The notes under the pieces are model-generated. The model was not told the origin of the DNA and did not search any database. It saw nothing but the letters and a program-made list of their open reading frames with translations. A stretch of DNA of 38,920 nt, taken from assembly GCA_020024105.1 (NCBI GenBank), contig JAHHUH010000018.1, positions 1-38,920 of the forward strand, written 5' to 3'. Of the stretch, positions 1 to 19,023 are shown piece by piece (position 1 is the stretch's first letter; each line of letters begins with the position of its first letter). The translations under genes were made by a program, and so were the position numbers. The stretch comes from Phascolarctobacterium sp. Lineage in GTDB: Bacteria > Bacillota > Negativicutes > Acidaminococcales > Acidaminococcaceae.

Positions 1-8
1 GAGAATAA

Positions 9-60
9 CTCATGATAGCATGAGAATATCTTGATACAAGTTGACAGGATATGCTATAAT
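9..60 (+). promoter_or_regulatory. Promoter with palindromic operator (C-box-like) for the controller/RM operon: perfect inverted repeat CTCATG-ATAG-CATGAG (9-24), -35 TTGATA (31-36), 18-bp spacer, extended -10 TGCTATAAT (52-60)
   Basis: Hexamers and palindrome read directly. The position immediately upstream of a small HTH gene that is translationally coupled to a DNA methyltransferase matches known C-protein autoregulatory architecture. The whole segment is duplicated exactly at 5433-5484. Confidence 0.55.
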
Positions 61-92
61 AATAGAAAATTAGTAGCGAATGGAGAGTTTCA

Positions 93-296
93 ATGCCAGT
101 CAGTTATGATAAGCTCTGGAAAATGTTGATAGACAAAAAGATGAATCGTACAGAGCTAAAGGATCTTGCAGGAATCAGCTTTAATGTCCTCGCCAAAATG
201 GGCAGAGGAGAATTCGTTTCTATGGAAAGCCTGTATAAAATTTGTGTTGCAATGAACTGCGAGATTGATGACATTATGGAGTTTATTAAAGTATGA
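93..296 (+). CDS. Small HTH (XRE / Cro-C1 type) DNA-binding protein, putative restriction-modification controller (C) protein
   Basis: 67 aa. GGAG RBS 7 nt upstream. Its stop overlaps the start of the downstream methyltransferase (ATGA coupling). A paralog sits at 5517-5735. Confidence 0.7.
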   Translation: MPVSYDKLWKMLIDKKMNRTELKDLAGISFNVLAKMGRGEFVSMESLYKICVAMNCEIDDIMEFIKV

Positions 297-1780
297 AAAT
301 AATTGACCATGCTGTTCAAATCACAAATGAATATATCGATCAGATGCCCAAAAAGCTTCGCAAGAAGTATGGTCAGTTCTTCACCAGTAAGGAAACGGCT
401 GTGTTTATGGCACAGTTGCTGAATATTCCTGAAGAGAAAGAAGAAATCTCCATTCTTGATCCTGGAGCTGGATCCGGAATTTTATCTGTGGCGCTGATTG
501 ATAGACTTCAAGGAATGACTAAGCTGAAACGGATTCGTTTGGTTTGCTATGAAAATGATCCGAATGTTTTGGATTTGTTAAAAGCAAATTTGAATTGGGC
601 TTGCCAAAGTTCATCTATTGAAATTGTATATCAGATTATTTCAGACAACTATATCTTAAGTCAGATGGAAGATTACAACTCTATGTTTGGAGCCAATCTC
701 GTCCCAAACAAATATGATTTTGTAATTGGTAATCCTCCCTATATGAAGATTCCCAAAGATGCTCCAGAAGCGTTAGCTATGCCTGATGTCTGTTATGGGG
801 CGCCCAATCTCTATTTTCTGTTTGCAGCTATGAGTCTCTTCAATTTGAATGAAAATGGGGAAATGGTTTATATCATTCCTCGATCCTGGACTTCTGGTGC
901 TTATTTTAGAAGGTTCAGAGAAAAGTTTTTAACAGAAGGGGCACTGGAGTACATTCATTTGTTCGTAAGCCGTGATAAGGTTTTTGAAAAGGAAAGCGTT
1001 CTGCAGGAAACAATTATCATTAAAGTCAAGAAAACACGAAAAAAGCCGGAAAAAATTATCGTAACTTCGACAAAGAGCAATGCCGACTTTTCTGACATTA
1101 CCAAATTTGAAGCGCCTTATTCTACCGTTGTGAGTGGTGATGCGCTTTATGTGTACTTGGTTACTGGACCAGAGGAAGTAGAGACATTAAATTGCCTTAA
1201 TCAGTGGAAAGACACGCTGCCAAATTTGGGAATGAAGATGAAAACCGGATTGACAGTGGATTTCCGAAACAGAGATGTGCTTCGGGATGAAGCTGAAGAA
1301 AAGGCGGTTCCCCTCTTTTATGCGCAGCATATTAAAGATGGAAAGGTGAACTTCCCGGTCGGAAAAGAACATGAATATATTGTCACAGATCAAAAGGGCC
1401 TTCTTCAAAAAAATGTGAACTACCTATTTGTGAAGCGCTTTACAGCCAAGGAAGAACACCGCCGATTGCAGTGTGGTGTATATCTGGCTCGAAAGAACCC
1501 TGAATATACCGAGATTAGCACACAAAATAAATTGAATTTTATTTGCGGGCTGCAGGATTTGTCGGAGTGCGTTGTTTATGGCCTGTATGTCCTTTTTAAT
1601 TCCACCCTATATGACGGATATTATCGTATTTTGAATGGATCGACACAGGTAAACTCTACTGAGGTGAATTCTATGCCGGTTCCTCCTTTAAATATTATTG
1701 AATCAATGGGTAAAAAACTAATTCAAAGTAAAGATATGTCTGAAAAGATGTGTGACAAAATCTTAAGGAGCTTCGTATGA
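293..1780 (+). CDS. N6-adenine DNA methyltransferase, gamma-class (Eco57I / M.PstI-BsuBI-like type II modification methylase)
   Basis: Motif order X (FFTSKETAVFMAQLL), I (ILDPGAGSGILSVAL), IV (GNPPYMKIP). Start overlaps the C gene and the stop overlaps the next ORF. Confidence 0.9.
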   Translation: MKIIDHAVQITNEYIDQMPKKLRKKYGQFFTSKETAVFMAQLLNIPEEKEEISILDPGAGSGILSVALIDRLQGMTKLKRIRLVCYENDPNVLDLLKANLNWACQSSSIEIVYQIISDNYILSQMEDYNSMFGANLVPNKYDFVIGNPPYMKIPKDAPEALAMPDVCYGAPNLYFLFAAMSLFNLNENGEMVYIIPRSWTSGAYFRRFREKFLTEGALEYIHLFVSRDKVFEKESVLQETIIIKVKKTRKKPEKIIVTSTKSNADFSDITKFEAPYSTVVSGDALYVYLVTGPEEVETLNCLNQWKDTLPNLGMKMKTGLTVDFRNRDVLRDEAEEKAVPLFYAQHIKDGKVNFPVGKEHEYIVTDQKGLLQKNVNYLFVKRFTAKEEHRRLQCGVYLARKNPEYTEISTQNKLNFICGLQDLSECVVYGLYVLFNSTLYDGYYRILNGSTQVNSTEVNSMPVPPLNIIESMGKKLIQSKDMSEKMCDKILRSFV

Positions 1781-2697
1781 GTAAATTAGACCAGGCAAGA
1801 GAAATCTTGGCATCATTAGAAGTACCCCTAAAGCAGCAAAATGATATGTGCTGCTATGTTTTATTGGCAATATCCAATATTACTGAAGAGGATGAATGGC
1901 AATCAGCAACAAATAATTGGATTCGAATCCATGATGTTATTCAATTCACTGGAGAAAATTTTGGTGTTGCTTATGCTGAAAACAGCAGGGAAACTATTCG
2001 AAAGCAAGCTTTGCACCATTTCAGAAATGCTGCGTTCATTGAAGATAACGGCAAAGCGACAAATAGCCCCAATTATCGTTACCGCCTAACCGAGGAAATG
2101 CTATCATTGATCCAGAGCTATGGAACTCCGGCATGGGAAGGAAAACTGCATAATTTCTTGGAAGGCCATGACACGCTAATTGATTTATATGCATCCAAAA
2201 AGGAAATGAGGAAAATGCCTGTAAAAATCAATGGCGAAGATTTTACTTTTTCTCCTGGCAAGCATAATCAGCTGCAGAAAGCAATTATTGAGGAGTTTGC
2301 TTCCAGATTTGCCCCTAATTCAGAGTGCTTGTACGTTGGTGATACCATCGAAAAGGACTTGGTCAAGCATGATACAAAGCTTCGTGAATTAGGATTTGAA
2401 ATTACCCTGCATGATAAGATGCCCGATGTTGTTCTGTATGCTGAAGATAAAAACTGGATTTATTTTGTTGAGTCGGTAACTTCCGTAGGTGCAATGGAAC
2501 CTCATCGTGTCCAGGAAATCGAGGAAATGACTAAGAATGTGACAGCAGGCAAAATCTATGTTACAGCATTCCTCGATTTTAAGACTTTCAAAAAGTTTTC
2601 TGAGAACCTGGCGTGGGAAACGGAAGTTTGGATTGCCGATATGCCGGATCATATGATCCATTTGAATGGCGATAAGTTCTTGGGGCCGAGGAGATAA
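1777..2697 (+). CDS. Putative type II restriction endonuclease cognate to the upstream methyltransferase (BsuBI/PstI-like family suspected from size and context)
   Basis: 306 aa, translationally coupled to the MTase. The C-M-R gene order is typical. I could not verify a catalytic motif by eye, so the family call is from memory of PstI/BsuBI operon layout. Confidence 0.5.
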   Translation: MSKLDQAREILASLEVPLKQQNDMCCYVLLAISNITEEDEWQSATNNWIRIHDVIQFTGENFGVAYAENSRETIRKQALHHFRNAAFIEDNGKATNSPNYRYRLTEEMLSLIQSYGTPAWEGKLHNFLEGHDTLIDLYASKKEMRKMPVKINGEDFTFSPGKHNQLQKAIIEEFASRFAPNSECLYVGDTIEKDLVKHDTKLRELGFEITLHDKMPDVVLYAEDKNWIYFVESVTSVGAMEPHRVQEIEEMTKNVTAGKIYVTAFLDFKTFKKFSENLAWETEVWIADMPDHMIHLNGDKFLGPRR

Positions 2698-2718: not shown

Positions 2719-3582
2719 ATGGTTGTAAAACAGCTGTCACAGCCACAATTAAAATCTTTGTGTGATGTATTGGCAAACTCCGATCCGAACTTAGGGTTAA
2801 CAGAGAGCGAAATTAGGCTAAAGTTAGGGCAATGCTTCATTCACAGTGTAGATAAAGGTGGGTACCGTAATGAGTTCGGGTATATACCTGGATTAAATAA
2901 AAGGGACTGGCTATATAATTGCTTCGCTAACGAGATCAATACAACCAAAAGTTTCAAAAAGATTTTTGATTTTATAGAGAATGCTTTAGATCCTGCCTGT
3001 TATACTTCTGATGGGAAGCGTGCTAAATATAAATATCTTTTTGATGAGAGTAACAAGATATTGTTACTTGTTGGTCTTGAGATACAGGCAAATGGAAAAA
3101 TACATCAAGTGATACAAGCTCAAACCTTAGATGAAGTTGATCAGAGAGTTAAATCACTGGAGCAAAAACTAACCGATCGTAAAATACATGAGGAAGTAAA
3201 AAAATACTGTATCCGTGATTATCTGAGAAAGGATTATCACGATGCAGTATTCGAAGCTGCAAAAGGCGTTGCTCAACGTGTACGAAATATTACAGGCCTC
3301 GAAGAAGATGGTGGTAAATTGTTTCAAAAGGCCTTTTCTCAAAAGGACCCCTATCTTTACTTTAACCTATTGAAGACAGAAAGCGAGATTAGTGAGTTCA
3401 AAGGAGTTGAGAAATTATTGGAAGCCATTTTTAATTTGGTCAGAAATCCTGAAGCACACACTCCTAAGATAAGTTGGACCATTGATGAAGAAGCAGCGTT
3501 AGATGTACTTACTTTAATTTCACTGGCGCATAAATATCTGGATAAATGCAAACCTGTTCCTTATAAAACTCAAAAACCATAG
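2719..3582 (+). CDS. HEPN-motif protein (TIGR02391/Abi-like uncharacterised family suspected)
   Basis: 287 aa, mostly helical-looking. C-terminal R-x4-H motif (RNPEAHTPK) is characteristic of HEPN RNase domains. It lies directly after the RM operon in a low-GC island. Confidence 0.45.
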   Translation: MVVKQLSQPQLKSLCDVLANSDPNLGLTESEIRLKLGQCFIHSVDKGGYRNEFGYIPGLNKRDWLYNCFANEINTTKSFKKIFDFIENALDPACYTSDGKRAKYKYLFDESNKILLLVGLEIQANGKIHQVIQAQTLDEVDQRVKSLEQKLTDRKIHEEVKKYCIRDYLRKDYHDAVFEAAKGVAQRVRNITGLEEDGGKLFQKAFSQKDPYLYFNLLKTESEISEFKGVEKLLEAIFNLVRNPEAHTPKISWTIDEEAALDVLTLISLAHKYLDKCKPVPYKTQKP

Positions 3583-3741
3583 ACCTAAAGTGTAAGGTTT
3601 GTGGTACACCTTGAAAGCTAAGAGGTATGGACTGCCATGAATATTAAAACTACCGATTTAGATGAGAAACTCTATTGATCACTAATACTTATTATGGGTA
3701 CAGGCGTGGTTTGAAAATGTGAGGGGAGGAGTATGGCATAA

Positions 3742-4800
3742 ATGCAAAAGGAAAAACGAAATTCTGTCATGAGTGATGAAGAACGACAGGATTACTGGGA
3801 TACGTTGTGCTCGTTTTCAGGAGAGAATCCTCAAAAAGAAGCAGAAGTATTAGCTACGAAGATTCGGTATCCAAGATTTTTGTATCGCTATCGTTCTGTA
3901 AACAGCAATAACCTGGAAGCATTAAGAACGAATAAACTGTTTTTCTCTCAAGCCAGCAAGTATGATGATCCGTTTGATACATTTTTGCATGTCGATGTTG
4001 ATAAAATTCGCCAGGAGTTTGAAAGTAATTTTAAATCAAACCAAACAATCGCCACGCTGGCAGATGCAATGAAAAGCATGATTGCAACTGTTCCTAATAA
4101 TCTCCCTGTAGAATATATTCAAAAGGTTACAACACCTGAAGGAATAGCAAGTTTGCATGAAAGTGGTTTGACAGATCAATTTTTATCTTACGCATTGACC
4201 TTACGAACAAGAATTCAAGATGAAATCCAGTCCATTTGTTTTTCAGAAAATGGGTTTAATGAAACATTGTGGTTGAAATATGCTAATATGCATAAAGGCT
4301 TCGCACTAATGTATGATTTGAACAATCCAGAAAACTATCACTGCGGAAAAAGCGAAAAATGTAAAAATTGCGGTGTTCACTTATATGGTACCCCTATCTA
4401 TCCTGTATATTATTCTGACGTTCCATATGATGCTACTAATTTTGCAAAGAAGGTTATGGCACAGGAAATGGTAAGAATTCTGGGGATTCCAATGCCGGAA
4501 TTTTTCAACAAAGAGTACGGCCCCATGACATGGGAAAAAGAGCGCAACAGCTTAATAAAAAAAGAATGCCACAGATACGATGAGGAATGGCGAATGATCG
4601 CTAATTGTCAAATGAAGCCACCAGCAATGATTGAATGGGTGCCAGACGGTGTGATTATAGGCCTTAGAACATCCCCAGTGGAGGAAAATTTAATTATTTC
4701 AATGGCATTGCAGGCCGGTATAAAAAATATATACAAATCTAAGATTGACAAAGAAAACCGTTTGAATGCTTTCCCTATATACAGTGCTTCCAATAAATAG
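3742..4800 (+). CDS. DUF2971-like protein (defence-island-associated, unknown function) with Cys-rich insert
   Basis: N-terminal LYRYRSVNSNNLEALRTNKLFFSQASKYDDPFD closely resembles the DUF2971 signature as I recall it. CxxC...CxxC cluster HCGKSEKCKNCGVH. GGGGAGGAG RBS. Confidence 0.5.
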   Translation: MQKEKRNSVMSDEERQDYWDTLCSFSGENPQKEAEVLATKIRYPRFLYRYRSVNSNNLEALRTNKLFFSQASKYDDPFDTFLHVDVDKIRQEFESNFKSNQTIATLADAMKSMIATVPNNLPVEYIQKVTTPEGIASLHESGLTDQFLSYALTLRTRIQDEIQSICFSENGFNETLWLKYANMHKGFALMYDLNNPENYHCGKSEKCKNCGVHLYGTPIYPVYYSDVPYDATNFAKKVMAQEMVRILGIPMPEFFNKEYGPMTWEKERNSLIKKECHRYDEEWRMIANCQMKPPAMIEWVPDGVIIGLRTSPVEENLIISMALQAGIKNIYKSKIDKENRLNAFPIYSASNK

Positions 4801-5102
4801 TCTCCTGCCGGAACAAAACACTGTCTGGAAAATCATCCTTATGTATGCTATAATACATCCAAGCCACCTGTACGGCATCTATTATGCGGGTGATAGATTT
4901 TTGATAGCAAAAATTCGGATAGACCACAGGATAAGTATAATCTGTATAAAACAGAATAACGTCGTATGAAATCCGCTAAACAGAAAAGTTTAGAAAACGA
5001 TTTAACTCGGCGAGTGGGAATAATTTTAAAAGCATAAAAATATTGTTTATTAATGTATTTTCAAGGGTATTGATGCTTTGCAGAGATATATTATATATAA
5101 AG

Positions 5103-5146
5103 AAAAGTCTTACCAATCTTGGGTTGGTAAGACTTTTTGCTTTATT
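5103..5146. terminator. Rho-independent terminator (12-bp perfect stem AAGTCTTACCAA/TTGGTAAGACTT, loop TCTTGGGT, then TTTTGCTTTATT)
   Basis: Read directly. A-run upstream makes it potentially bidirectional. It closes the RM/HEPN/DUF2971 transcription unit. Confidence 0.75.
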
Positions 5147-5424
5147 AGGAATACGTAAAGAATTCAATATTTCCGAACATTATGCAGATAAATTCATTAG
5201 GGCACATACTGATAAGAAGAAAAAGTTTTTGTTGTTAAGGATAAGAAGATAGGGCGTGTCCCACTTCTTGTAGCTATCGTAATAGTGAACTGATATATGG
5301 TCGATTATATGGAATATCTGATTGTCTATGCATGGTATCCTGGAAGCAATGCACGAGAACTGGTAGGGTATGTGAAACATAAAAGAATTCTTATCAAATT
5401 GCTCATAAATCCTTAAAATAAACT

Positions 5425-5552
5425 GAGAATAACTCATGATAGCATGAGAATATCTTGATACAAGTTGACAGGATATGCTATAATAATAGAAAATTAGTAG
5501 CGAATGGAGAGTTTCAATGCCAGTCAGTTATGATAAGCTCTGGAAAATGTTA
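5425..5552 (+). repeat. Direct repeat: 128 bp identical to window 1-128 (operator, promoter, RBS and first 36 nt of the C-protein gene). Similarity at reduced identity (about 80%) continues through the coding region to about 5735.
   Basis: Base-by-base comparison of 1-260 with 5425-5684. Copy 1 starts at the window edge, so the repeat may extend further upstream there. Confidence 0.9.
5433..5484 (+). promoter_or_regulatory. Second copy of the C-box palindrome CTCATGATAGCATGAG, -35 TTGATA and extended -10 TGCTATAAT
   Basis: Identical to 9-60. Confidence 0.55.
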
Positions 5553-5735
5553 ATAGATAAAAAGATGAACCGTACAGAGTTAAAAGATGCTGCAGGAATT
5601 AGTTTTAATGTTCTCGCTAAAATGGGTCGTGATGAGTTTGTTTCCATGGAAAGTCTTCATAAAATCTGCAAGACGTTATCTTGCAATATAGGCGAGATAG
5701 TAGAATTTACGGACGAGGAGCAATCAAGGCAGTAA
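5517..5735 (+). CDS. Paralogous small HTH controller (C) protein
   Basis: 72 aa. The first 12 codons are nucleotide-identical to the 93-296 gene, then diverge (K/R and D/E substitutions, different C-terminus). Followed 48 nt later by a C5-MTase N-terminal remnant. Confidence 0.7.
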   Translation: MPVSYDKLWKMLIDKKMNRTELKDAAGISFNVLAKMGRDEFVSMESLHKICKTLSCNIGEIVEFTDEEQSRQ

Positions 5736-5782
5736 TAGAGATAAATTATTAGTTATTATGAGTATGGAGAGAATTATTTATT

Positions 5783-6041
5783 ATGCAGCAACCATTAACA
5801 TGTGTAGAAATTTGCGCAGGAGCTGGTGGACAGGCTTTGGGATTGGCCATGGCTGGATTCGTCCATGTCGCTTCATATTGTAGTCGTCACCGCTGAGTCT
5901 ATGCCTAATTGTGTGGCATCCTTTGTACTTGGTACAGAAGACATTGATAGTGTCTGCTACTTTGCGCTGTATGAGATGATCGGAGATGTCAAGGAAGTTA
6001 TCTCTGAAGATATAGTTGAAACTTTGGGAACGTTTGTCTAG
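5783..6041 (+). pseudogene. Remnant of a C5-cytosine DNA methyltransferase (motifs I-III only, frameshifted and truncated before the PCQ motif)
   Basis: Frame A 5783-5896: MQQPLTCVEICAGAGGQALGLAMAGF (motif I FxGxGG region), then a stop. Frame B (ORF 5826-6041) continues with ...CYFALYEMIGDVKEV..., resembling the motif II/III region of Dcm-type enzymes (compare M.HhaI EVYEMNFGE..GDITQV). Total is under 90 codons of an expected 350 or more. Confidence 0.65.
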
Positions 6042-6122
6042 GGGAAGTGGCTGAAGGATATTTCGGATTTACCGTTATACCTATCTATATAAACTGTTCA
6101 TAAAAGAAAGAAGTGAAATGTT

Positions 6123-8954
6123 GTGATAACAGAATGTGGATCAGAGTGGAATCGCTGGGACTTGCATCTGCATACGGCGTCTTCCTATGATTACAAATAT
6201 AAATCTGCTGATGCTGATGATTTGTTATGCCAAACTTTGAAACAAAATGGGGTAAAGGCCGTAGCCATAACGGATCATTTTAAAATCGATAAAGATAGAA
6301 TAGAAAGTTTACGTGCAAAAGCTCCTGAAATAGTGTTCTTTCCAGGGGTGGAACTTCGCACGGATAAAGGGGCAAATAATCTCCATCTAATACTGATTTT
6401 TTCCGAAAAATCGGATTTATCTACATTGTCAGCGGATTTTGACGCTATTATGGTACGGCAAAAGGCAAAATCTCCTGAATCTAATGATACAATCTATTGG
6501 GAGTTTTCTGACATTGTCTCTTTTGCAAAAGAACATAACGCTCTTATCACCATTCATGCTGGTAAAAAATCAAATGGGATTGATAAGGAAATTTCAAATT
6601 CTTTGCCAGTTAAGGAGGCAATTAAAGCTGATATTGCAAAGAACGTAGATTTTTTTGAAATCGGCCAGAAACGTGATACAGATTCTTATGAGAAATATGT
6701 CTTCAAGGAAATTGATCGAAAACCACTGATAATGTGCTCTGACTCGCATTCACCGCATGAATATAATCCAAAAGAAAATCTGTGGATCAAGGCCGATCTT
6801 ACTTTTGAAGGACTCAAACAGTGTTTATATCAACCGTTAGAACGAGTGTTTATCGGAGATATTCCCCCTATTCTGGATAGGGTCAATAAAAATAAACAAG
6901 GCAATATAGCTTCAATATCGTGCACTCGTGCAGAGAAACCGGTTAATGTAGACTTCAATTGGTTTGATTTTGAAATTCCTCTTAATCCAGGGATGATTGC
7001 TATAATTGGAAATAAAGGAAGCGGAAAAAGTGCTTTTTCTGATATTATTGCACATCTTTGTCGTTGCAGAACAATGGCAAGTGCATCCTTTTTAAATTCC
7101 AAAAGATTCAGGAAGGCTCCCAAAAATTATGCTAACGATTATTCTGCAACCTTAACATGGGTTGATGGAGAAAAGCGCAGTAGTTCCTTAGCAGCATATC
7201 AAGGGGACGCTTCTATTGAGGATGCACAGTATTTACCTCAAAAATACATTGAAGATGTGTGCAATGATTTTGAAGATGTTTTTCAAAAGGAAATTGACAA
7301 AGTCATTTTTTCATATGTGGATAAAACCGAGCGAGGTGATGCCCAAAATCTTGATGAACTTGTAAGGTTAAAGTCCAAACCATTGGAAATACGCTTTCAA
7401 AACGCACGAATTAAACTTGAGGATGTTAACAGAAGAATAATTAGGCTGGAGGATAAGCGAACTCAGGAATATCGAAAAAATCTCTCTGATAGTCTTAACA
7501 AAGCAGATGAAACATTGAAAAGACATGAAAAATCAAAACCCGTAGCCGTAAACAAACCGGATGGTAAAGATTCTAACGATGAGTATCAAGCCAAACTCAC
7601 TCAATTAAATCAAAGTATTGAGGATACAAAAGGAGAAATTCAAAAGATCAACGATCAAATTAGTGGTATCAATGCTTTTGTAGATGACGTCAGAACAATA
7701 GTAGCACAGATAGCACTTCTTAAAACACATTTTGGAGAAATCCAGGGAAAGATCGATGAACTTTCCGACAAGTATAGTTTAAATAAAGAGGACTATGCGT
7801 TTGCCCTGACTACACCTGATGAGTACTTCGATGAACTAATAAATAAAGCCGGTAAAGATAAGCTGGAATTGCAAGAAACTATTTCTGATTCGAATTCTGA
7901 TTCGAAAACTGGACTTGCTTTTTTACTTTCACAGTACGAGGCAGAAAAATCAATGTTAATTTCCTCAGCAGATGCAGAAGAAAAAGCGTACCAAAAATAT
8001 CTTAAGGATTTAGAAGAATGGGACAATAAGAAATCTGAAATCATAGGAAATAAAGATAGTGAAGGTTCCATTGAGTTCTATAAATACGCCCTTAATTATA
8101 TTGATACAATGCTTATCCCTGAGTATGAGGGACTTGTAAACGAAAGAGATGAAATCTCAAGGTCGCTTTATGAGGGGATAGTCGAGCTTTCACATATTTA
8201 CCAAAGTATATATGCACCCATTCAAGGTGAAATATCTGGGTTGCTTGGGGATTTGGAAGATAATGTCGAATTTCATGCTGAAGTGTTCATGCAAGATACA
8301 AGGATCGCTTCTAATATTTTAAGGTTTATTAATCAAAAATATAATGGAAAATATGGACGTTCCCATAATTCTTTGCAAGAGATAGAGAATAGAGTCAAAA
8401 CTACAAACTTTGGTGATGAAATAGAGGTAATGAATTTTGTTCATGATCTTGCAGAAGTGATAACCAGTGATTTCGAAACGGCAGAAAAGAGAGTTTCTAA
8501 TCGCCAAGAGTTTTATGACTTTATATTTGGACTGGAATATATTGGGGTTAATTTTAAACTCAAAATGGGTAATCACCCATTAGAAGAGCTTTCTCCAGGC
8601 GAACGAGGAATTATCTTGTTGATTTTTTATCTTGCCCTCAGTAAGGAAAGCAAGCCTATAATTATAGATCAACCGGAAGACAATCTGGATAATCAATCTG
8701 TTTATAGTAAATTGGTACCATGTATATGCAAAGCAAAGCAAAAACGTCAAGTTATCATTGTAACGCACAACCCTAATATTGCAGTTGCGTGTGATGCTGA
8801 ACAGATTGTTTATTGCGAGATGGATAAGGTGACAAACCAAATAACCTATGTTTCTGGTGCTATAGAAAACCAGACCATTCGAAATCATGTTGTGGATGTG
8901 CTTGAAGGAACTATGCCTGCGTTTGATTTGAGAAGATTGAAATATAATCAATAG
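6123..8954 (+). CDS. 943-aa fusion protein: N-terminal PHP (polymerase/histidinol-phosphatase) phosphoesterase domain plus Rad50/SbcC/SMC-like ABC ATPase with coiled-coil insert. Candidate single-protein anti-phage effector.
   Basis: PHP motifs WDLHLHTASSYD, VAITDH, TIHAG, MCSDSHSPHEY. Walker A IAIIGNKGSGKSAFSD. About 450-aa charged, heptad-rich region. ABC signature LSPGERG, Walker B PIIIDQPEDNLD, H-loop VIIVTHNP. GTG start (6123) after a purine-rich RBS. Low GC. Sits under the duplicated C-protein promoter. Confidence 0.8.
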   Translation: MITECGSEWNRWDLHLHTASSYDYKYKSADADDLLCQTLKQNGVKAVAITDHFKIDKDRIESLRAKAPEIVFFPGVELRTDKGANNLHLILIFSEKSDLSTLSADFDAIMVRQKAKSPESNDTIYWEFSDIVSFAKEHNALITIHAGKKSNGIDKEISNSLPVKEAIKADIAKNVDFFEIGQKRDTDSYEKYVFKEIDRKPLIMCSDSHSPHEYNPKENLWIKADLTFEGLKQCLYQPLERVFIGDIPPILDRVNKNKQGNIASISCTRAEKPVNVDFNWFDFEIPLNPGMIAIIGNKGSGKSAFSDIIAHLCRCRTMASASFLNSKRFRKAPKNYANDYSATLTWVDGEKRSSSLAAYQGDASIEDAQYLPQKYIEDVCNDFEDVFQKEIDKVIFSYVDKTERGDAQNLDELVRLKSKPLEIRFQNARIKLEDVNRRIIRLEDKRTQEYRKNLSDSLNKADETLKRHEKSKPVAVNKPDGKDSNDEYQAKLTQLNQSIEDTKGEIQKINDQISGINAFVDDVRTIVAQIALLKTHFGEIQGKIDELSDKYSLNKEDYAFALTTPDEYFDELINKAGKDKLELQETISDSNSDSKTGLAFLLSQYEAEKSMLISSADAEEKAYQKYLKDLEEWDNKKSEIIGNKDSEGSIEFYKYALNYIDTMLIPEYEGLVNERDEISRSLYEGIVELSHIYQSIYAPIQGEISGLLGDLEDNVEFHAEVFMQDTRIASNILRFINQKYNGKYGRSHNSLQEIENRVKTTNFGDEIEVMNFVHDLAEVITSDFETAEKRVSNRQEFYDFIFGLEYIGVNFKLKMGNHPLEELSPGERGIILLIFYLALSKESKPIIIDQPEDNLDNQSVYSKLVPCICKAKQKRQVIIVTHNPNIAVACDAEQIVYCEMDKVTNQITYVSGAIENQTIRNHVVDVLEGTMPAFDLRRLKYNQ

Positions 8955-9118
8955 TAGCCTATGTCGTACGGCAACACTCTGGCAACACAAAATCAGATAG
9001 CCTATACTATCCTGATAATGAGAATAATAGTGATACGAGATGTTATTTCCACTAACTAAAAAAGCTTAGTTTTCCTTAACCAGGAGCGAATGTGAATAAT
9101 TAAATAAGGATTTTAGTA

Positions 9119-9170
9119 CCCCGGAAAGCTTTGAAAATAAAGAGCTTTCCGGGATATTTTGGTTTTAGGG
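9119..9170 (+). terminator. Rho-independent terminator (11-bp perfect stem CCCGGAAAGCT/AGCTTTCCGGG, 12-nt loop, then ATATTTTGGTTTT)
   Basis: Read directly, 165 nt after the stop of the 943-aa gene. Confidence 0.75.
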
Positions 9171-12726: not shown

Positions 12727-13653
12727 TTATAGCTGCTTATCATAAAATGCCAGCTGCCGGAGCAATCTAGCTTTCAGCTTCTGGATAATACGGTCCGGAC
12801 TGAGTACCTGGATAAGAGGACCTAGGGAAAGCAGGCGGATAATCAGTTCTGCTTCGTCCTCGCTGTCATAGCTAATGGTAATTTGGTAGGTATGGGCTGT
12901 CAGTCTGGTGGTTTCCTTGGCAAAATGGGAAAATTGCAGGAGGGCCCGGTTAAGGGCGTTGCGGTGATCGTCCAGAATGAAGGCCAGCTGCTGTTGGGGC
13001 GGCTCCAGCACCCCGCCCAGTGGCGGAGGGTCAGCAAGGAGGGTACAGCTGTGAATACCGGAGAGCCTGAGGATGTAGCTTCTTTGGGCACCACTACCTC
13101 TAACTCTAAATTTATCATCCTTGGCAGAGTATTCCAGGTAGAGGGGAAGAAAATGGAGCTTTTGGAGCCGGTGGCCCTTCGTATAGTAGGTAAATGCCAG
13201 CTCCTGCCGCTGCTGGATGGCTTGGAGGATGGTCCGGAAGTTGGCTATGTAGTGGGGGCTACGAAAATTATCTCCGTCCTGGTAGCGGTCATAATAGACA
13301 ATGTCCTGCCAATCGAAAAGGGGCTTGAGCTTTTCCAGACCCTGGGTGCTAGGGCTAAAGAGCTGGATACGAGGGTCCTGGAGCAGGGTTGCGAGCCAGC
13401 GCTTTTCTAAAAGGGAGAGGGGCTGCTGAGGTGGATGGCGGATAACGGTGCTCAGGTCCTTCCGTAGCAGGGGCCATTCCTGCTGCAATGCCTGGGGCAG
13501 GGTAAGGACGCTTTCTTCAAAGGCCTTTTCCCGGACCAGCTGGTACAGCCTGTCCTGGGTAAGCTGGCCTCGGACGGCTTCCTGTAGGATGGCTGTAACA
13601 GTAGTAAAATAAACATTATAAATTTCCTGAAAGAGCATCTTCTTCACCTCCAT
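12727..13653 (-). CDS. WYL-domain protein (regulator-like, no obvious HTH)
   Basis: 308 aa. WYL-like stretch LPLYLEYSAKDDKFRVRGSGAQRSYILRLSGI. Overlaps the upstream gene by 38 nt. Confidence 0.5.
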   Translation of the reverse strand: MEVKKMLFQEIYNVYFTTVTAILQEAVRGQLTQDRLYQLVREKAFEESVLTLPQALQQEWPLLRKDLSTVIRHPPQQPLSLLEKRWLATLLQDPRIQLFSPSTQGLEKLKPLFDWQDIVYYDRYQDGDNFRSPHYIANFRTILQAIQQRQELAFTYYTKGHRLQKLHFLPLYLEYSAKDDKFRVRGSGAQRSYILRLSGIHSCTLLADPPPLGGVLEPPQQQLAFILDDHRNALNRALLQFSHFAKETTRLTAHTYQITISYDSEDEAELIIRLLSLGPLIQVLSPDRIIQKLKARLLRQLAFYDKQL

Positions 13654-14869
13654 AGAGTGCCAGCATTTTTAGTAAATCCTCTCGGTAGAGCTCCAGCAGG
13701 CGGGGATTAGTGCAGTCCAGCTTTTTGATGCGGCCGTAAAAGGTTCGTAGCCAGGGGAGCATTTCCAGCGTATCGTAAACATCGGCAGTAAAAAGATAGG
13801 TATCCTCCGCCAGCTTCTGGACGGAGCCGCAACGTTTTTCCCGATACAATCTCTGGACCAGATAGCCTTCTTCTGGTTCAAAGTGCAAGGTGACTTCTAA
13901 ATGCTCCGTGGTTTCCTGACCATTATATGAAACACCCCAAAGCCGCTGCTGAAATTCTGCCAGGGGCTGCTCCAGCTCCTGAACGGCAGGGTAAATATTG
14001 CCGGGGGTAACACTGATCAGCATATCCACCCGGTAAAAGCGGAAGCTGTGGTATTTTAGGGAATAGGACAGAAGAAAGCAGCGGCCACTTTGAACGCTGG
14101 TATAAATTTTTAAGGGCAGGACCTCCTGGGGTGGGAGGGGCTGCTGCTGACGGTTGACCAGCTCTAGCTGAACACAGCGGTGCTCCTGGAGGGCGGCAAG
14201 GAGGCTGTAAAGAATTTCGCTGTCCAGGGCGTGGAGGATGTAGTGATGCTTAAAGCGGAAGGGCTGCTCCATGGGGGGCAGCTTGTCCAGCAGAAAGGAG
14301 CCGAGGACGCCTAGGGGAGCCGTTTCTGCGTAAAAGCTGAGGGCAGTAGCCCAGGAGCTTAATGCAACCTGCTGGGGTGTTAGTCTGTAATAGAGCTCAC
14401 AACCGGATTTTTCTGTGGTTAATAGTCCCAGCCGTACATATTCCTGAAGCTTTTTGCGGATGGTGGAGGCATCAAGATTAAAATTCGTGTCAAAATGGGC
14501 TAAATAATCCTGGTAAATGCGGTTCACAATGGCTGTCGTTGTCAGGGACAGGCCACCGGCTAAAATATCCAGCAGATAAAAATGCAGGGTAATATCCCTG
14601 GCGGTAAAGCTTTTAGTTTTTAAGGATTTATAGAGGGGATTACTGGTGATGGCTCTGCTGTCCACGGAGAGGAAAACCTGCTTTCCCTCAGCATTGCGGT
14701 GAAAGGACAGATAATCTCCCAGCCAGCTTTCAATGCGGCGGCGTTCATTATCATAGCTGCGACGATTTTTGGGGGCGTAGTCCTCGCGACTTTTAAAGCC
14801 GTAAACATAGAATTGGCGCATGTAGGTACGGATTTTCTGATAATCCTTAATTAATTCACTATAGGCCAT
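13616..14869 (-). CDS. WYL-domain transcriptional regulator (N-terminal winged-HTH-like region plus WYL)
   Basis: 417 aa. WYL signature FLLSYSLKYHSFRFYRVDMLISV. Co-directional with and overlapping the second WYL gene (PafB/PafC-like pairing). Confidence 0.6.
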   Translation of the reverse strand: MAYSELIKDYQKIRTYMRQFYVYGFKSREDYAPKNRRSYDNERRRIESWLGDYLSFHRNAEGKQVFLSVDSRAITSNPLYKSLKTKSFTARDITLHFYLLDILAGGLSLTTTAIVNRIYQDYLAHFDTNFNLDASTIRKKLQEYVRLGLLTTEKSGCELYYRLTPQQVALSSWATALSFYAETAPLGVLGSFLLDKLPPMEQPFRFKHHYILHALDSEILYSLLAALQEHRCVQLELVNRQQQPLPPQEVLPLKIYTSVQSGRCFLLSYSLKYHSFRFYRVDMLISVTPGNIYPAVQELEQPLAEFQQRLWGVSYNGQETTEHLEVTLHFEPEEGYLVQRLYREKRCGSVQKLAEDTYLFTADVYDTLEMLPWLRTFYGRIKKLDCTNPRLLELYREDLLKMLALYGGEEDALSGNL

Positions 14870-17736: not shown

Positions 17737-18465
17737 GTGATAATGATGGATAGAATTCTAGACTTTGAGAACTGGATGCAAGAAAATAGTGTTTTAAGTG
17801 CAAGTACTAGATATAAATATCGTTTAGCGGTGAGCAGTATATCCAAGGACATGTTGCGTGAAGGTGTTATTCATAAAAAATTAATTGATATGAATCTTTT
17901 AGAGTTAGATTTATCCATAGCTAATATAGTCGTAAATCCATTTTTTATAAATAAGAATAAGGTTGGCCACAACATGTATAGTAATAGTTTGAGGCAGTAT
18001 CGCTACTATTTACTATTACACGAAAATGATGTTGATGATAAATCAGAGGAAGCTTTGATTGGAGATGTATCAGAAACAGAGAGGGTTGTTCTATCTAAGG
18101 CTAGAGTTGGGCAAGGTGTATATAGAGATGAATTGTTGAGAAAATACGGTGGTAAGTGTGTAATTACCGGTATAGACCATCCCAAGCTGTTAATAGCTAG
18201 TCATATAAAACCATGGAAGGTAGCTAATAATAAAGAGCGGATTGATGTTAATAACGGGTTATTGCTTTCAGCAAATATGGACAAGCTTTTTGATAGTGGA
18301 CTGATAACCTTTAAAGCTAATGGACAAATGGTAATTTCTTCGTATGTAGGTCAAACTAATAGTAAATTATTGGGGCTTTCTGATGATATGGTTGTAAATC
18401 TTTTACCAACTGCGGATTTGTTAAGATATATGGAATATCATAGGGATGTATTATTCGTAAAATAA
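17737..18465 (+). CDS. HNH_2-type (PF13391-like) HNH endonuclease with uncharacterised N-terminal domain
   Basis: C-terminal ...RVGQGVYRDELLRKYGGKCVITGIDHPKLLIASHIKPWKVANNKERIDVNNGLLLSANMDKLFDSGLITF matches the HNH_2 signature (R..Q..FR..LL..Y...C.ITG....LL.AAHIKPW......NGLLL...HRLFD.G). Probable start ATG 17743. Low GC. Confidence 0.8.
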   Translation: MIMMDRILDFENWMQENSVLSASTRYKYRLAVSSISKDMLREGVIHKKLIDMNLLELDLSIANIVVNPFFINKNKVGHNMYSNSLRQYRYYLLLHENDVDDKSEEALIGDVSETERVVLSKARVGQGVYRDELLRKYGGKCVITGIDHPKLLIASHIKPWKVANNKERIDVNNGLLLSANMDKLFDSGLITFKANGQMVISSYVGQTNSKLLGLSDDMVVNLLPTADLLRYMEYHRDVLFVK

Positions 18466-18491
18466 AAGCAATTTACACCTAAATAAAGGTA

Positions 18492-18545
18492 AAAAATATC
18501 CTGTGAGTTAGTATTAGAGAGTGCAAACTCACAGGATTTTTATTG
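18492..18545 (+). terminator. Rho-independent terminator (12-bp perfect stem ATCCTGTGAGTT/AACTCACAGGAT plus T5)
   Basis: Read directly. Confidence 0.8.
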
Positions 18546-18606
18546 TTTAAATAAATTATAAATGACTTATTTGATGATATAATAAGATCAAGAGATATAA
18601 GAAAGG

Positions 18607-19020: not shown

Positions 19021-19023
19021 GTT

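What the first reader, a model, noticed from the sequence alone, without database searches (positions are those of the whole stretch)
6123..8954. Single 943-aa PHP-phosphoesterase / Rad50-SMC-like ATPase fusion under a restriction-modification controller promoter: candidate defence effector
One polypeptide combines an N-terminal PHP domain (four His/Asp metal-binding motifs: HLHT, ITDH, TIHAG, SDSHSPHEY) with a complete split ABC/SMC head (Walker A GNKGSGKS, signature LSPGERG, Walker B IIIDQPEDNLD, H-loop VTHNP). The two ATPase halves are separated by about 450 aa of charged coiled coil, resembling a one-chain analogue of Mre11-Rad50/SbcCD in which a PHP metallo-phosphoesterase replaces the calcineurin-like nuclease. 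It sits in a low-GC island next to an RM system. It is expressed from an exact copy of that RM system's C-protein promoter/operator. A gutted C5 methyltransferase lies immediately upstream. From memory only (unverified), a PHP-plus-ATPase single-gene system was among those reported in large defence screens (the polymerase/histidinol-phosphatase-like, ppl, entry in Gao et al. 2020). This gene may be a divergent member or a distinct arrangement with an SMC-type coiled coil and C-protein control.
Basis: partly seen in the sequence, partly recalled or inferred. Interest (0 to 1): 0.8.

Follow-up and report, generated by a model that had tools for sequence, protein, structure and literature searches.

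The report
Ppl-like nuclease-ATPase ending an RM operon
The gene encodes an intact member of the already-named but functionally untested TrlF family, a sister of the anti-phage protein Ppl that joins a PHP nuclease to an SMC/Rad50-like ATPase; here it is what survives of a restriction-modification operon whose methylase and nuclease genes were deleted.

Summary
Window 6123-8954 (+) is an intact 943-aa ORF with an N-terminal PHP phosphoesterase and a split ABC/SMC-type ATPase head around a ~300-aa helical insert.

It is not a new kind of protein. It matches NCBIfam "TrlF family AAA-like ATPase" end to end (634 bits, cutoff 350). That family has more than 1,500 clusters at 50% identity, spans most bacterial phyla, and is routinely annotated on plasmids. 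It is a sister of the anti-phage protein Ppl, not an equivalog (148 bits, cutoff 1000).

The promoter duplication is real: 127 nt are identical. However, the regulator is an HTH_26 protein that belongs to RM cassettes, not to TrlF. The "gutted methyltransferase" is a whole HTH–M(C5)–R(NgoMIV-type) operon with a 1,505-bp internal deletion. A 92%-identical relative keeps that operon intact, with TrlF 30 nt after R.

In this Clostridia/gut clade, TrlF is repeatedly the last co-oriented gene of very different RM and BREX operons. In deduplicated loci, methylase-motif genes lie upstream in 12 of 25 and downstream in 0 of 26. TrlF stays intact where the RM genes decay (dN/dS 0.09).

The most likely function is an autonomous Ppl-like DNA-end exonuclease gated by nucleotide binding. 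A functional link to restriction is possible but unproven.

The parts
6123..8954 (+). TrlF-family gene, 943 aa, GTG start. Domains by residue: PHP phosphoesterase ~1-270; ABC head N-lobe with Walker A ~271-409; antiparallel helical insert ~410-708; ABC head C-lobe with signature, Walker B (DQPED) and H-loop ~709-943.
   Evidence: ORF. NCBIfam TrlF_fam_ATP 6e-190, full length. Pfam. Model and secondary structure. Fold matches. Invariant catalytic residues. dN/dS 0.09 against L097.
6103..6113 (+). Purine-rich ribosome-binding region (aaagaaagaag) ahead of the GTG start. It is the only upstream sequence conserved across relatives in different contexts.
   Evidence: Comparison of the 120 nt upstream of the start in 20 loci. 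Sequence.
5874..6041 (+). Remnant of an NgoMIV-type restriction endonuclease gene (C-terminal part only).
   Evidence: Pfam NgoMIV_restric, profile positions 203-258 of 275, E = 3.8e-15. blastn: window 5874-9101 matches L097 2141-5356 at 90%.
5783..5868 (+). Remnant of a C5 DNA methyltransferase gene: the first ~28 codons with motif I. The reading frame then runs into the deletion junction and stops at 5896.
   Evidence: Pfam DNA_methylase, profile positions 2-27 of 324. Intact 321-aa orthologue in L097. Breakpoint from blastn: window 5300-5868 matches L097 66-635.
5517..5735 (+). HTH_26 (Cro/C1-type) regulator, copy B. It is the first gene of the collapsed RM operon.
   Evidence: Pfam HTH_26 1.6e-17. 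79% identical to copy A. Orthologous gene heads the intact operon in L097 and in L098.
5455..5484 (+). Sigma-70-type promoter, TTGATA-18 nt-TGcTATAAT (11 of 12 matches, extended -10). It is the likely promoter of the HTH_26-scar-TrlF transcription unit.
   Evidence: Promoter scan. It lies inside the 127-nt exact repeat. No + strand terminator-like site lies between it and the TrlF start.
5433..5448 (.). Operator-like palindrome CTCATG-ATAG-CATGAG just upstream of the -35 element.
   Evidence: It occurs only at 9-24 and 5433-5448; 0 of 100 shuffles reach the observed count. The palindrome is kept with compensating changes in L097, L104 and L004.
5102..5138 (.). Bidirectional hairpin terminator that insulates the unit from the upstream genes.
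   Evidence: Scan: 17-pair stem followed by a T run, found on both strands. Perfect 14-nt inverted repeat I25.
9120..9153 (+). Intrinsic terminator after the TrlF gene. Homology with the L097 cassette ends at ~9101.
   Evidence: Scan: 13-pair stem, 7 G-C pairs. End of the blastn match.
1..296 (+). Copy A of the same promoter/operator (1-92) and of the HTH_26 gene (93-296). It is cut by the window edge. Its first 127 nt are identical to copy B and its 3' part belongs to another lineage, so it is a mosaic.
293..2697 (+). Intact PstI/BsuBI-type type II RM pair: m6A MTase at 293-1780 and REase at 1777-2697. This is the cassette type found directly upstream of TrlF on seven other contigs.
   Evidence: Pfam Eco57I/N6_Mtase and BsuBI_PstI_RE 1e-61. 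PADLOC MTase_II 2e-108 and REase_II 2e-95. Type-B loci.

Best explanation
The gene encodes a TrlF-family protein. This is a single polypeptide in which a PHP metal-dependent nuclease is fused to an SMC/Rad50-like ABC ATPase whose two head halves are separated by a ~300-aa antiparallel helical arm. It is the sister family of the anti-phage protein Ppl.

I judge it to be an autonomous single-gene defence module against phage or mobile DNA.

Inferred mechanism, by homology with Ppl:
1. The heads bind nucleotide and hold the PHP exonuclease off.
2. During infection, a fall in NTP levels together with free 3'-OH DNA ends switches on exonucleolytic degradation of DNA.

Local history, which is shown directly: the gene was the last cistron of an HTH_26-M(C5)-R(NgoMIV-type)-TrlF operon. 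A 1,505-bp deletion removed M and R. TrlF now lies 388 nt after the HTH_26 gene, between two terminators, and is probably transcribed from that gene's autoregulated promoter.

Shown: family membership, architecture, intact catalytic residues, purifying selection, the deletion, and the recurrent position at the end of RM operons.

Inferred: the defence role, the Ppl-like activation logic, and co-transcription from the HTH_26 promoter.
For: Family membership:
- NCBIfam TrlF_fam_ATP, 634 bits against a cutoff of 350, profile 2-944 of 944.
- One source names a 61%-identical homologue 'TrlF family AAA-like ATPase', and PGAP uses the same name on plasmids.

Homology to Ppl at both ends, with a shared DQPED Walker B. 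PADLOC Ppl 8.6e-35.

Ppl is reported as an NTP-inhibited ssDNA 3'-5' exonuclease that senses 3'-OH ends. Source: review PMC12904381, which summarises Xu et al. 2026; that paper's title is quoted in PMC13434339.

Fold and catalytic residues.

Defence and mobile-element context:
- The window island holds a PstI-like RM system, a PD-Lambda-3_B homologue and a PDC-S31 candidate.
- Relatives lie beside Gabija-like and Abi genes, CBASS-like genes, and SIR2-HD and AAA_15 genes, and on Mob/integrase elements and conjugative plasmids.
- Neighbour censuses are dominated by RM and defence families, with no universal partner.

Autonomy:
- The gene stands alone in many loci.
- It stays intact beside decayed RM genes in the window, L106 and L014.
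- dN/dS is 0.09.

Operon history: intact array in L097 and breakpoints.

Transcription unit: promoter and terminators.
Against: - In the searchable literature, no TrlF-family member has been tested against phage. No paper holds both 'TrlF' and 'phage'.
- In Photorhabdus, the one organism where the locus was studied, the phenotype was growth arrest at 36 C. All selected mutations fell in trlG and none in trlF.
- Identity to Ppl is low (23-31%), and the central third does not align. Transfer of the mechanism is therefore an inference.
- The invariant Gln after the Walker B Asp leaves it open whether the head hydrolyses ATP at all.
- The tight, one-sided linkage to RM and BREX operons in the close clade hints that the protein may not be fully autonomous.
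- Co-transcription from the HTH_26 promoter is inferred only from spacing and the absence of terminators.
Confidence: 0.6

Rival explanations
1. TrlF is functionally coupled to restriction. It may be an accessory exonuclease that loads on the DNA ends made by the linked restriction enzyme (or BREX) and destroys the fragments before phage repair. Alternatively it may be a back-up effector released when the RM system is inhibited, in the manner of the restriction-linked ABC-type effectors PrrC and RloC. In the window it would then be orphaned from its own RM system, or would work with the PstI-like system 3.4 kb upstream that carries the same promoter.
For: - In the close clade, TrlF is the last co-oriented gene, 7-80 nt after unrelated methylation-based systems. 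These include NgoMIV, PstI, BpuJI, NgoPII/HaeIII, a C5+N6 fusion MTase, MmeI-like type IIG, a ResIII-Eco57I fusion, and BREX PglZ-BrxL. It is also near DpnI, a divergent MvaI/BcnI system and a type I HsdR.
- Methylase-motif ORFs lie upstream in 12 of 25 deduplicated loci and downstream in 0 of 26 (Fisher p = 3e-5).
- Only ~25 nt upstream of the start codon are conserved, so in these operons there is no promoter of its own.
- Ppl is reported to need 3'-OH ends made by an endonuclease.
Against: - The gene stands alone in many loci and on plasmids.
- Among species representatives of the wider family the asymmetry is weak: 12 of 59 upstream against 5 of 56 downstream, p = 0.12.
- TrlF remains intact and under purifying selection where the adjacent RM genes are deleted or broken.
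- The partner enzymes leave different kinds of ends (own knowledge: PstI leaves 3' overhangs, NgoMIV 5' overhangs, HaeIII and DpnI blunt ends).
- RM systems are the commonest defence genes, so co-location alone is expected.
Confidence: 0.25
2. It is part of a stress or growth-arrest module, like the Photorhabdus temperature restriction locus (trlR-trlF-trlG), rather than an anti-phage gene.
For: The family name comes from that locus. Deleting the operon allowed growth at 36 C, and transcription rose on temperature up-shift (PMC7554251). A small HTH gene also precedes TrlF in the window.
Against: - No trlG-like gene (AlbA_2 + HATPase_c_4) lies in the window.
- No such gene is seen in the eight close-clade contexts that carry Pfam annotation.
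- TrlG's domains are not among the recurrent downstream families in 77 genomes.
- The window's HTH belongs to RM cassettes.
- In Photorhabdus no mutation mapped to trlF.
Confidence: 0.07
3. It is a housekeeping DNA-repair enzyme: a one-chain analogue of Mre11-Rad50/SbcCD used for chromosomal break processing.
For: The ATPase resembles Rad50 and SMC in sequence and fold. PHP domains act as exonucleases in Pol X and Pol III (stated in bioRxiv 10.1101/2025.09.30.679545).
Against: - Distribution is patchy across phyla, and the gene sits in low-GC variable islands, on plasmids and on integrative elements. There is no conserved synteny with core genes.
- Neighbours are defence genes.
- There is no zinc hook.
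- The closest characterised relative is a defence protein.
Confidence: 0.03
4. In this genome the gene is an inactive passenger left behind by decay of the RM operon. The ORF is open, but it is no longer expressed or useful.
For: The adjacent M and R genes were destroyed by a deletion. The start codon is GTG with a modest RBS.
Against: - The ORF is full length with every catalytic residue intact.
- dN/dS against L097 is 0.09.
- The 92% relative also starts with GTG.
- A strong promoter lies upstream with no terminator in between.
- The identical protein is found in three metagenome samples.
Confidence: 0.05

Closest known systems
TrlF family AAA-like ATPase (NCBIfam NF045780; prototype TrlF of the Photorhabdus laumondii temperature restriction locus, Hapeshi et al. 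2020, PMC7554251)
   Same: Full-length match well above the curated cutoff. Same PHP + ABC-ATPase architecture and similar length. The prototype was also annotated 'histidinol phosphatase' and is also preceded by a small putative regulator gene.
   Different: No TrlG partner here. The upstream HTH belongs to an RM cassette. The host is a gut Bacillota-type organism rather than a gamma-proteobacterium. No function has been shown for TrlF itself in the prototype locus.
Ppl, a single-gene anti-phage system (Gao et al. 2020 from own knowledge; mechanism: Xu et al., Mol Cell 2026, as quoted in PMC12904381 and PMC13434339)
   Same: One polypeptide with an N-terminal PHP nuclease, Walker A, a central insert, a signature motif, a DQPED Walker B and an H-loop. 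The N-terminal and C-terminal thirds are homologous (E = 1e-17 and 7e-17). It is also a stand-alone gene on mobile elements.
   Different: Identity is only 23-31%, and the central third does not align. Against the NCBIfam Ppl equivalog model it scores 148 bits where the cutoff is 1000. It is 52 aa longer than Ppl. The recurrent position at the end of RM operons is seen for this TrlF clade; I did not examine it for Ppl.
Mre11-Rad50 / SbcCD
   Same: An ABC head split by an antiparallel coiled coil and associated with a metal-dependent nuclease. Sequence-profile and fold matches to Rad50.
   Different: The nuclease is a PHP domain fused in cis, not a separate calcineurin-like subunit. The arm is short (~130-150 residues per strand). 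There is no CxxC zinc hook. Gln replaces the catalytic Glu after Walker B. The gene is not in a housekeeping context.
SMC-like defence ATPases: Wadjet JetC and Lamassu LmuB
   Same: JetC gives the best structural match overall (E = 4e-9), and LmuB also matches. These are defence systems that pair an SMC-like DNA sensor with a nuclease (PMC12904381).
   Different: Those are multi-subunit systems with separate nuclease subunits (JetD, LmuA) and longer arms. TrlF is a single chain with a PHP nuclease.
PrrC / RloC, restriction-linked ABC-type effectors (own knowledge; not tested here)
   Same: ABC-ATPase-type effectors encoded inside or beside RM loci. RloC carries a Rad50-like coiled-coil insert. 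This is a precedent for a second-line effector genetically tied to restriction.
   Different: Those are anticodon nucleases that act on tRNA, with a different effector domain. No sequence relationship to them was detected or tested here.

Membership tests
TrlF family AAA-like ATPase (NCBIfam NF045780) | Whole-protein score above the curated equivalog cutoff, with end-to-end coverage | tested here: met
   634.2 bits against a cutoff of 350; residues 6-942 match profile positions 2-944 of 944.
TrlF family AAA-like ATPase (NCBIfam NF045780) | PHP N-terminal domain plus split ABC ATPase in one chain of about 940 aa | tested here: met
   Homologues are 934-1,050 aa long with the same layout.
Temperature restriction locus (trlR-trlF-trlG operon of Photorhabdus) | Adjacent trlG (AlbA_2 + HATPase_c_4), the gene that carries the phenotype | tested here: not met
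   Downstream of the gene lie a terminator and then CstA. TrlG's domains are not among the recurrent downstream families in 77 genomes, and they are absent from the annotated close contexts.
Temperature restriction locus (trlR-trlF-trlG operon of Photorhabdus) | A dedicated small regulator (trlR) directly upstream of trlF | tested here: inconclusive
   An HTH_26 gene is upstream. However, it is the regulator of the deleted RM operon, and it is not found upstream of TrlF in 72 other genomes.
Ppl anti-phage protein (NCBIfam NF042955; PADLOC Ppl) | Score above the curated equivalog cutoff | tested here: not met
   148 bits against a cutoff of 1000, in two partial stretches. The PADLOC Ppl model gives 118 bits, with a best stretch covering only residues 820-937.
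Ppl anti-phage protein (NCBIfam NF042955; PADLOC Ppl) | PHP exonuclease + NTPase in a single gene | tested here: met
   Pairwise homology of both terminal modules to E. coli Ppl WP_015059139.1, with shared motifs that include DQPED.
Ppl anti-phage protein (NCBIfam NF042955; PADLOC Ppl) | Protection against phage; NTP-inhibited 3'-5' ssDNA exonuclease activity | not testable with these tools
   This needs plaque assays and biochemistry. No published test of a TrlF-family member was found.
PHP phosphoesterase superfamily (Pfam PF02811) | Pfam gathering score | tested here: not met
   21.6 bits against 26.4 for the window protein. Homologues P0004 and P0022 do carry a precomputed PF02811 hit.
PHP phosphoesterase superfamily (Pfam PF02811) | Conserved His/Asp/Glu metal-ligand motifs and the PHP fold | tested here: met
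   H15, H17, D51/H52, E77, H88, H145, D207 and H209 are invariant down to 30% identity. Foldseek matches RNase AM (7ug9, 9etk), BAD_1165 and the Pol III alpha and PolC PHP domains. The family profile hits RNase AM at 2e-4.
Rad50/SbcC/SMC ABC ATPases | Walker A, Q-loop, signature, Walker B and H-loop, with a coiled-coil insert between the head halves | tested here: met
   Motifs invariant. Pfam SMC_N above the gathering score. Helical insert at 410-708. Fold matches.
Rad50/SbcC/SMC ABC ATPases | Catalytic Glu immediately after the Walker B Asp | tested here: not met
   The motif reads D849-Q850-P-E852. Q850 is invariant in all aligned family members and in Ppl.
Rad50/SbcC/SMC ABC ATPases | Zinc hook (CxxC) or globular hinge at the apex of the arm | tested here: not met
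   There is no conserved Cys in residues 420-800. The apex at ~551-597 is short and of lower confidence.
RM controller (C) protein circuit | A small HTH protein with a palindromic operator at its own promoter, heading an RM operon | tested here: met
   HTH_26. Palindrome upstream of the -35 element, conserved with compensating changes. The gene heads the intact RM operons in L097, L098, L004 and L104.
RM controller (C) protein circuit | Membership of the classical C-protein family (HTH_3 type, usually preceding the R gene), with demonstrated delay of restriction | tested here: inconclusive
   The best Pfam family is HTH_26. HTH_3 is below its cutoff (16-22 bits against 23). The gene is coupled to the M gene, not the R gene. 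Regulatory function cannot be tested here.

The most novel reading that the evidence does not exclude
In gut Clostridia, TrlF is not merely a neighbour of restriction systems but a functional add-on to them. It would be a portable terminal cistron: a Ppl-like, end-sensing PHP exonuclease that is co-transcribed with whichever RM or BREX cassette sits between the conserved HTH_26 promoter and itself. It would convert restriction cuts into irreversible degradation, or fire when restriction is blocked. The HTH_26 promoter and the TrlF gene would then act as conserved 'bookends' between which RM cassettes are exchanged by recombination. The 127-nt exact promoter duplication and the mosaic HTH-A in this window would be a trace of such an exchange.
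Probability: 0.3. Interest if true: 0.7.

Novelty: new member of a known kind. Interest (0 to 1): 0.45.

Why it matters
The protein itself is ordinary. It belongs to a large family that already has a name and is annotated automatically.

What the follow-up adds is context, in three parts:

1. The family carries a name taken from a temperature-restriction phenotype that never mapped to it. In the searchable literature it has never been linked to phage. Yet it is clearly the sister of Ppl, whose mechanism was published in 2026. A defence role for thousands of annotated 'TrlF family' genes, many of them on clinical conjugative plasmids, is therefore a cheap and testable prediction.

2. In one clade the gene is appended, on the same strand and without a promoter of its own, to at least eight unrelated types of RM or BREX operon. 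It also outlives them when they decay. That points to either synergy between restriction cuts and an end-directed exonuclease, or to a recombination hotspot for swapping RM cassettes. Either would be useful to know for how layered immunity is organised.

3. The invariant Gln in place of the Walker B catalytic Glu across Ppl and TrlF suggests the ATPase head acts mainly as a nucleotide sensor. This fits the reported inhibition of Ppl by NTPs.

Tried and rejected
- **TrlG as a conserved partner:** rejected. It is absent from the window, from the annotated close contexts, and from the recurrent downstream families in 77 genomes.
- **HTH_26 as a TrlF-specific regulator (TrlR equivalent):** rejected. 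An HMM built from three copies finds no hit among 34 small ORFs upstream of TrlF in 72 genomes. The gene always heads an RM cassette.
- **Filing the protein as Ppl:** rejected on the curated cutoff.
- **A promoter of its own conserved across the family:** not found. Only ~25 nt upstream of the start codon are conserved.
- **Phage-borne copies:** only 7 weak or partial hits among 50,697 phage records.
- **Exact-protein look-up:** gave only three 3-kb metagenome contigs carrying the same scar.
- **Solved Ppl or TrlF structure:** none appeared among the listed sequence or fold matches in the PDB copies.
- **Literature:** the primary Ppl paper (Xu et al. 2026) is not held. No paper holds 'TrlF' together with 'phage', and none holds 'PDC-M49'. 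Two Firmicute defence surveys mention no such gene.
- **Yersinia pYR3:** could not be fetched under the accession I recalled.
- **Rfam and tRNA scans of the window:** empty.
- **ORF-poor stretch at 14.9-17.0 kb:** holds only small ORFs and no tandem repeats.
- **Limits of the neighbour censuses:** gene calls came from a simple greedy ORF picker, and the methylase test is motif-based. It misses DpnI, BREX, HsdR and decayed genes and has a background of ~3.5%. The counts are therefore approximate.

Full report
**1. The observation**

Window 6123-8954 (+) is a single open reading frame of 943 aa with a GTG start.

In an alignment of 24 homologues at 55-87% identity, and in a second alignment reaching down to 30% identity, these residues are invariant:
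- PHP metal ligands: H15, H17, D51/H52, E77, H88, H145, D207 and H209.
- ATPase motifs: Walker A core (G296, G299, G301, K302), Q-loop Q373, signature (S824, G826, G829), Walker B D849 and H-loop H882.

Supporting searches:
- Pfam gives SMC_N (1.4e-10) and AAA_21 (9.3e-8) above their gathering scores. PHP scores only 21.6 bits against 26.4.
- The PHP assignment is rescued by a family profile that hits RNase AM (2e-4) and Rad50 (1.4e-7) among PDB sequences.
- An AlphaFold model (mean pLDDT 81.6, pTM 0.62) has an N-terminus that matches RNase AM, BAD_1165 and the Pol III alpha and PolC PHP domains. The rest matches JetC, Smc, MukB, Rad50, RecN and Lamassu LmuB.

- The helical insert spans about residues 410-708 (~300 aa), not ~450 aa.
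- There is no conserved CxxC hook.
- The residue after the Walker B Asp is an invariant Gln (D849-Q850-P-E852), not the catalytic Glu of Rad50 and SMC proteins.

**2. What the protein is**

NCBIfam places it end to end in 'TrlF family AAA-like ATPase' (NF045780): 634 bits against a cutoff of 350, with profile positions 2-944 of 944 covered. The anti-phage Ppl model reaches only 148 bits against a cutoff of 1000, and the Spaf_1101 model 138 against 475. PADLOC gives a partial Ppl hit (8.6e-35).

The name TrlF comes from the Photorhabdus laumondii 'temperature restriction locus' trlR-trlF-trlG. There, mutants able to grow at 36 C all mapped to trlG and none to trlF. The authors did not consider phage defence (PMC7554251).

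The family is very large:
- More than 3,284 hits at E <= 1e-10 among 90%-identity clusters.
- 1,543 representatives of 50%-identity clusters at E <= 1e-30, nearly all full length.
- At least 594 loci among species-representative genomes from most bacterial phyla.
- 1,160 plasmid records, mostly conjugative. PGAP already labels many of them 'TrlF family AAA-like ATPase' and keeps them separate from 'anti-phage protein Ppl'.
- Phage genomes essentially lack it.

**3. Relationship to Ppl**

I compared the protein with E. coli Ppl (WP_015059139.1, fetched). The N-terminal 300 aa align at 26% identity (E = 1e-17) and the C-terminal 130 aa at 31% (E = 7e-17). The middle third does not align. Ppl has the same DQPED Walker B.

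So TrlF and Ppl are sister families with one architecture. However, the gene is neither Ppl nor a new arrangement.

[quoted passage not shown] NTPs bound to both its PHP and NTPase domains inhibit it, and it is activated by nucleotide depletion together with 3'-OH ends made by phage homing endonucleases (PMC12904381). The primary paper is Xu et al., Mol Cell 2026; its title is quoted in PMC13434339, and the paper itself is not held. I found no paper that mentions TrlF together with phage.

**4. The surroundings in the window**

Positions 1 to ~10,000 are low in GC (0.35-0.40, against 0.45-0.53 further on). They form a composite defence island:

| Coordinates | Feature |
|---|---|
| 93-296 | HTH_26 gene, copy A |
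| 293-1780 | m6A MTase (PstI/BsuBI-type RM) |
| 1777-2697 | REase (PstI/BsuBI-type RM) |
| 2719-3582 | PD-Lambda-3_B homologue (7.6e-54) |
| 3742-4800 | DUF2971 / PDC-S31 candidate |
| 5102-5138 | hairpin terminator |
| 5517-5735 | HTH_26 gene, copy B |
| 5783-6041 | RM scar |
| 6123-8954 | TrlF |
| 9120-9153 | terminator |

Host-type genes follow (CstA, SPFH).

It consists of the first ~28 codons of a C5 MTase joined to the C-terminal part of an NgoMIV-type restriction enzyme (Pfam 3.8e-15).

**5. Local history**

The closest relative (P0001, 92% identical protein) sits on contig L097 in an intact array: HTH_26 (72 aa), C5 MTase (321 aa), NgoMIV-type REase (291 aa), then a 30-nt gap and TrlF.

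blastn aligns window 5300-5868 with L097 66-635, and window 5874-9101 with L097 2141-5356. The window therefore lacks 1,505 bp covering most of M and R. Three short metagenome contigs that carry the identical protein show the same scar.

TrlF is still under strong purifying selection relative to L097. dN/dS is 0.09 overall, and 0.04-0.05 in the PHP domain and the C-terminal head.

**6. The promoter claim**

Window 1-127 is identical to 5425-5551. The repeat continues at lower identity, 91% over 244 nt. The identical part contains:
- a palindrome, CTCATG-ATAG-CATGAG;
- a strong promoter, TTGATA-18 nt-TGcTATAAT (5455-5484);
- the RBS and the first 11-12 codons of the HTH gene.

The palindrome occurs nowhere else in the window. 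At the same place ahead of HTH_26 genes that head other RM cassettes it is kept with compensating changes, which is what an operator would look like.

The regulator is an HTH_26 protein. Its stop codon overlaps the start of the downstream methyltransferase in copy A and in L004. Copies A and B are 79% identical, and the L004 copy is 74% identical to copy A.

This regulator heads cassettes with unrelated cargo:
- PstI-type RM: window copy A and L104.
- NgoMIV-type RM: L097.
- C5 MTase with an HNH nuclease: L004.
- C5+N6 fusion MTase: L098.

It is absent upstream of TrlF in 72 other genomes. It is therefore an RM-cassette regulator. Its closeness to TrlF in the window is a by-product of the deletion.

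Copy A is a mosaic. Its 5' part is identical to copy B, and its 3' part is closer to the PstI-type lineage. This indicates gene conversion or recombination between cassettes.

Co-transcription of TrlF from this promoter is plausible. There is no + strand terminator-like site between 5139 and the TrlF start, no good promoter in 6042-6122, and terminators bracket the unit. It remains unproven.

**7. An unexpected regularity**

In the close clade (>= 48% identity, mostly gut metagenomes and Clostridia-type MAGs), TrlF is repeatedly the last gene, on the same strand and 7-80 nt downstream, of very different methylation-based immunity operons:

- HTH_26 - m6A MTase - PstI-type REase, on seven contigs.
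- HTH_26 - C5+N6 fusion MTase - two unknown genes.
- C5 MTase - BpuJI-type REase - C5 MTase.
- NgoPII / HaeIII / MTase.
- HTH_26 - C5 MTase - NgoMIV-type REase.
- MmeI-like type IIG enzyme, then a DUF2971 gene.
- BREX PglZ - BrxL.

Looser arrangements also occur: a ResIII-Eco57I fusion (486-nt gap), HTH_26 - C5 MTase - HNH with the HNH gene on the opposite strand, DpnI alone (201-nt gap), a divergent MvaI/BcnI system, and a type I HsdR two genes upstream.

A motif-based count gives methylase-like ORFs among the three nearest genes as follows:

| Set | Upstream | Downstream | Fisher p |
|---|---|---|---|
| Close clade, deduplicated | 12 of 25 (11 co-oriented) | 0 of 26 | 3e-5 |
| Species representatives of the whole family | 12 of 59 | 5 of 56 | 0.12 |

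The background rate is 6 of 171 ORFs. So the trend among species representatives is the same but weak.

Only about 25 nt upstream of the start codon (the RBS) are conserved between contexts. In these operons TrlF therefore has no promoter of its own.

TrlF also stands alone in several settings:
- in defence islands next to AAA_15 and SIR2-HD genes, Gabija-like and Abi genes, or CBASS-like genes;
- inside a polysaccharide locus;
- on a S. aureus plasmid.

It stays intact beside decayed RM genes in three independent cases: the window, L106 (a truncated PstI-type REase) and L014 (only the REase C-terminus is recognisable). Wider neighbour censuses show RM and defence families and mobile-element genes, but no universal partner.

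**8. Mechanism**

Shown:
- An intact trinuclear-type PHP site.
- A complete nucleotide-binding ABC head.
- An antiparallel helical arm with a conserved break (RHEKSKP...KP at 467-479) and a conserved patch (SSAD-EEK-YQKYL at 613-627).
- Homology to Ppl.
- Defence-island and mobile-element context.
- Purifying selection.

Inferred: like Ppl, the protein is kept off by bound NTPs. It is switched on by nucleotide depletion and free 3'-OH ends, and then degrades DNA exonucleolytically.

The invariant Gln after the Walker B Asp, shared with Ppl, suggests a head that binds nucleotide and hydrolyses it poorly, which would make it a sensor. This is speculation, because E852 two residues later might substitute.

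The main rival is functional coupling to restriction, either as an end-resecting accessory or as a guard. I rate it at 0.25. Stress-module, repair-enzyme and dead-passenger readings are unlikely, for the reasons given in the rival explanations.

**9. Verdict**

But the protein is a routine member of a named and widespread family. The 'C-protein control' is an accident of a deletion. The claimed distinctness from Ppl does not hold.

The added value lies in three points:
- the reconstruction of the collapsed operon;
- the one-sided association of this TrlF clade with RM and BREX operons;
- the observation that the family has a name but no tested function.

Novelty: new member of a known kind. 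Interest: 0.45.

Noticed in passing
window 8667-8678 (protein residues 849-852); also L096 (Ppl), L094, L095: The Walker B motif reads D-Q-P-E-D in every TrlF-family sequence aligned (down to 30% identity) and in E. coli Ppl. The catalytic Glu that follows the Walker B Asp in Rad50, SMC and transporter ABC ATPases is a Gln, which is the state of the engineered hydrolysis-dead 'EQ' mutants. This may mean the head is a nucleotide sensor rather than a motor.
   Followed up: partly
window 17737-23259: A second low-GC block (GC 0.31-0.34) holds another defence-type cluster: an HNH_2 endonuclease (17737-18465), a 965-aa PLD-nuclease + ResIII helicase + DUF3427 protein (19024-21921), and a Fic/DOC protein on the minus strand (22030-23259). 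Housekeeping MTHFR and methionine synthase genes follow directly.
   Followed up: partly
window 2719-4800; L114:4084-4911: Between the PstI-like RM system and the second HTH promoter lie a PD-Lambda-3_B homologue (Hypoth_Ymh, 7.6e-54) and a DUF2971/PDC-S31 protein. A DUF2971 gene also sits between a type IIG RM enzyme and TrlF in L114. DUF2971 may therefore be another recurrent passenger of these cassettes.
   Followed up: partly
window 1-296 versus 5425-5735: HTH_26 copy A is a mosaic. Its promoter and first 11-12 codons are identical to copy B (NgoMIV-type lineage), while the rest of the gene resembles the PstI-type lineage (L104). This suggests gene conversion or recombination between RM cassettes at the regulator gene. 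The window edge cuts the repeat, so its left boundary is unknown.
   Followed up: partly
L106:4460-4906; L014 ~6850-6970: Two further relatives carry an intact TrlF directly after a broken PstI-type restriction gene: a 149-aa C-domain fragment in L106, and only the last ~20 codons recognisable in L014. Decay of the RM genes next to a preserved TrlF has therefore happened at least three times.
   Followed up: partly
L121, L123-L125 (e.g. L124:337-8159): In four metagenome contigs, TrlF (53% identical) follows BREX pglZ-brxL with a 34-nt gap. A 113-aa ORF of unknown function then abuts the TrlF stop codon.
   Followed up: no
L004 and L005 (upstream genes): In two different genomes the RM-TrlF cassette (HTH_26-C5 MTase-HNH, or DpnI) is inserted directly downstream of guaA (GMP synthase), which suggests a shared integration hotspot.
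   Followed up: no
representative proteins P0135, P0139, P0147, P0154 and others: A sizeable subfamily of about 990-1,050 aa matches the query in two stretches, with the long stretch starting at query residue ~200 and protein residue ~230-300. These proteins therefore carry ~50-90 extra residues in or after the PHP domain. They are common in Bacteroidota, Planctomycetota and Proteobacteria loci.
   Followed up: no
window 12727-14869 (minus strand): Two adjacent genes of 308 and 417 aa, the second with a borderline WYL-domain hit (21.3 bits against 21.8), lie between the two low-GC islands. WYL regulators are often associated with defence loci.
   Followed up: no
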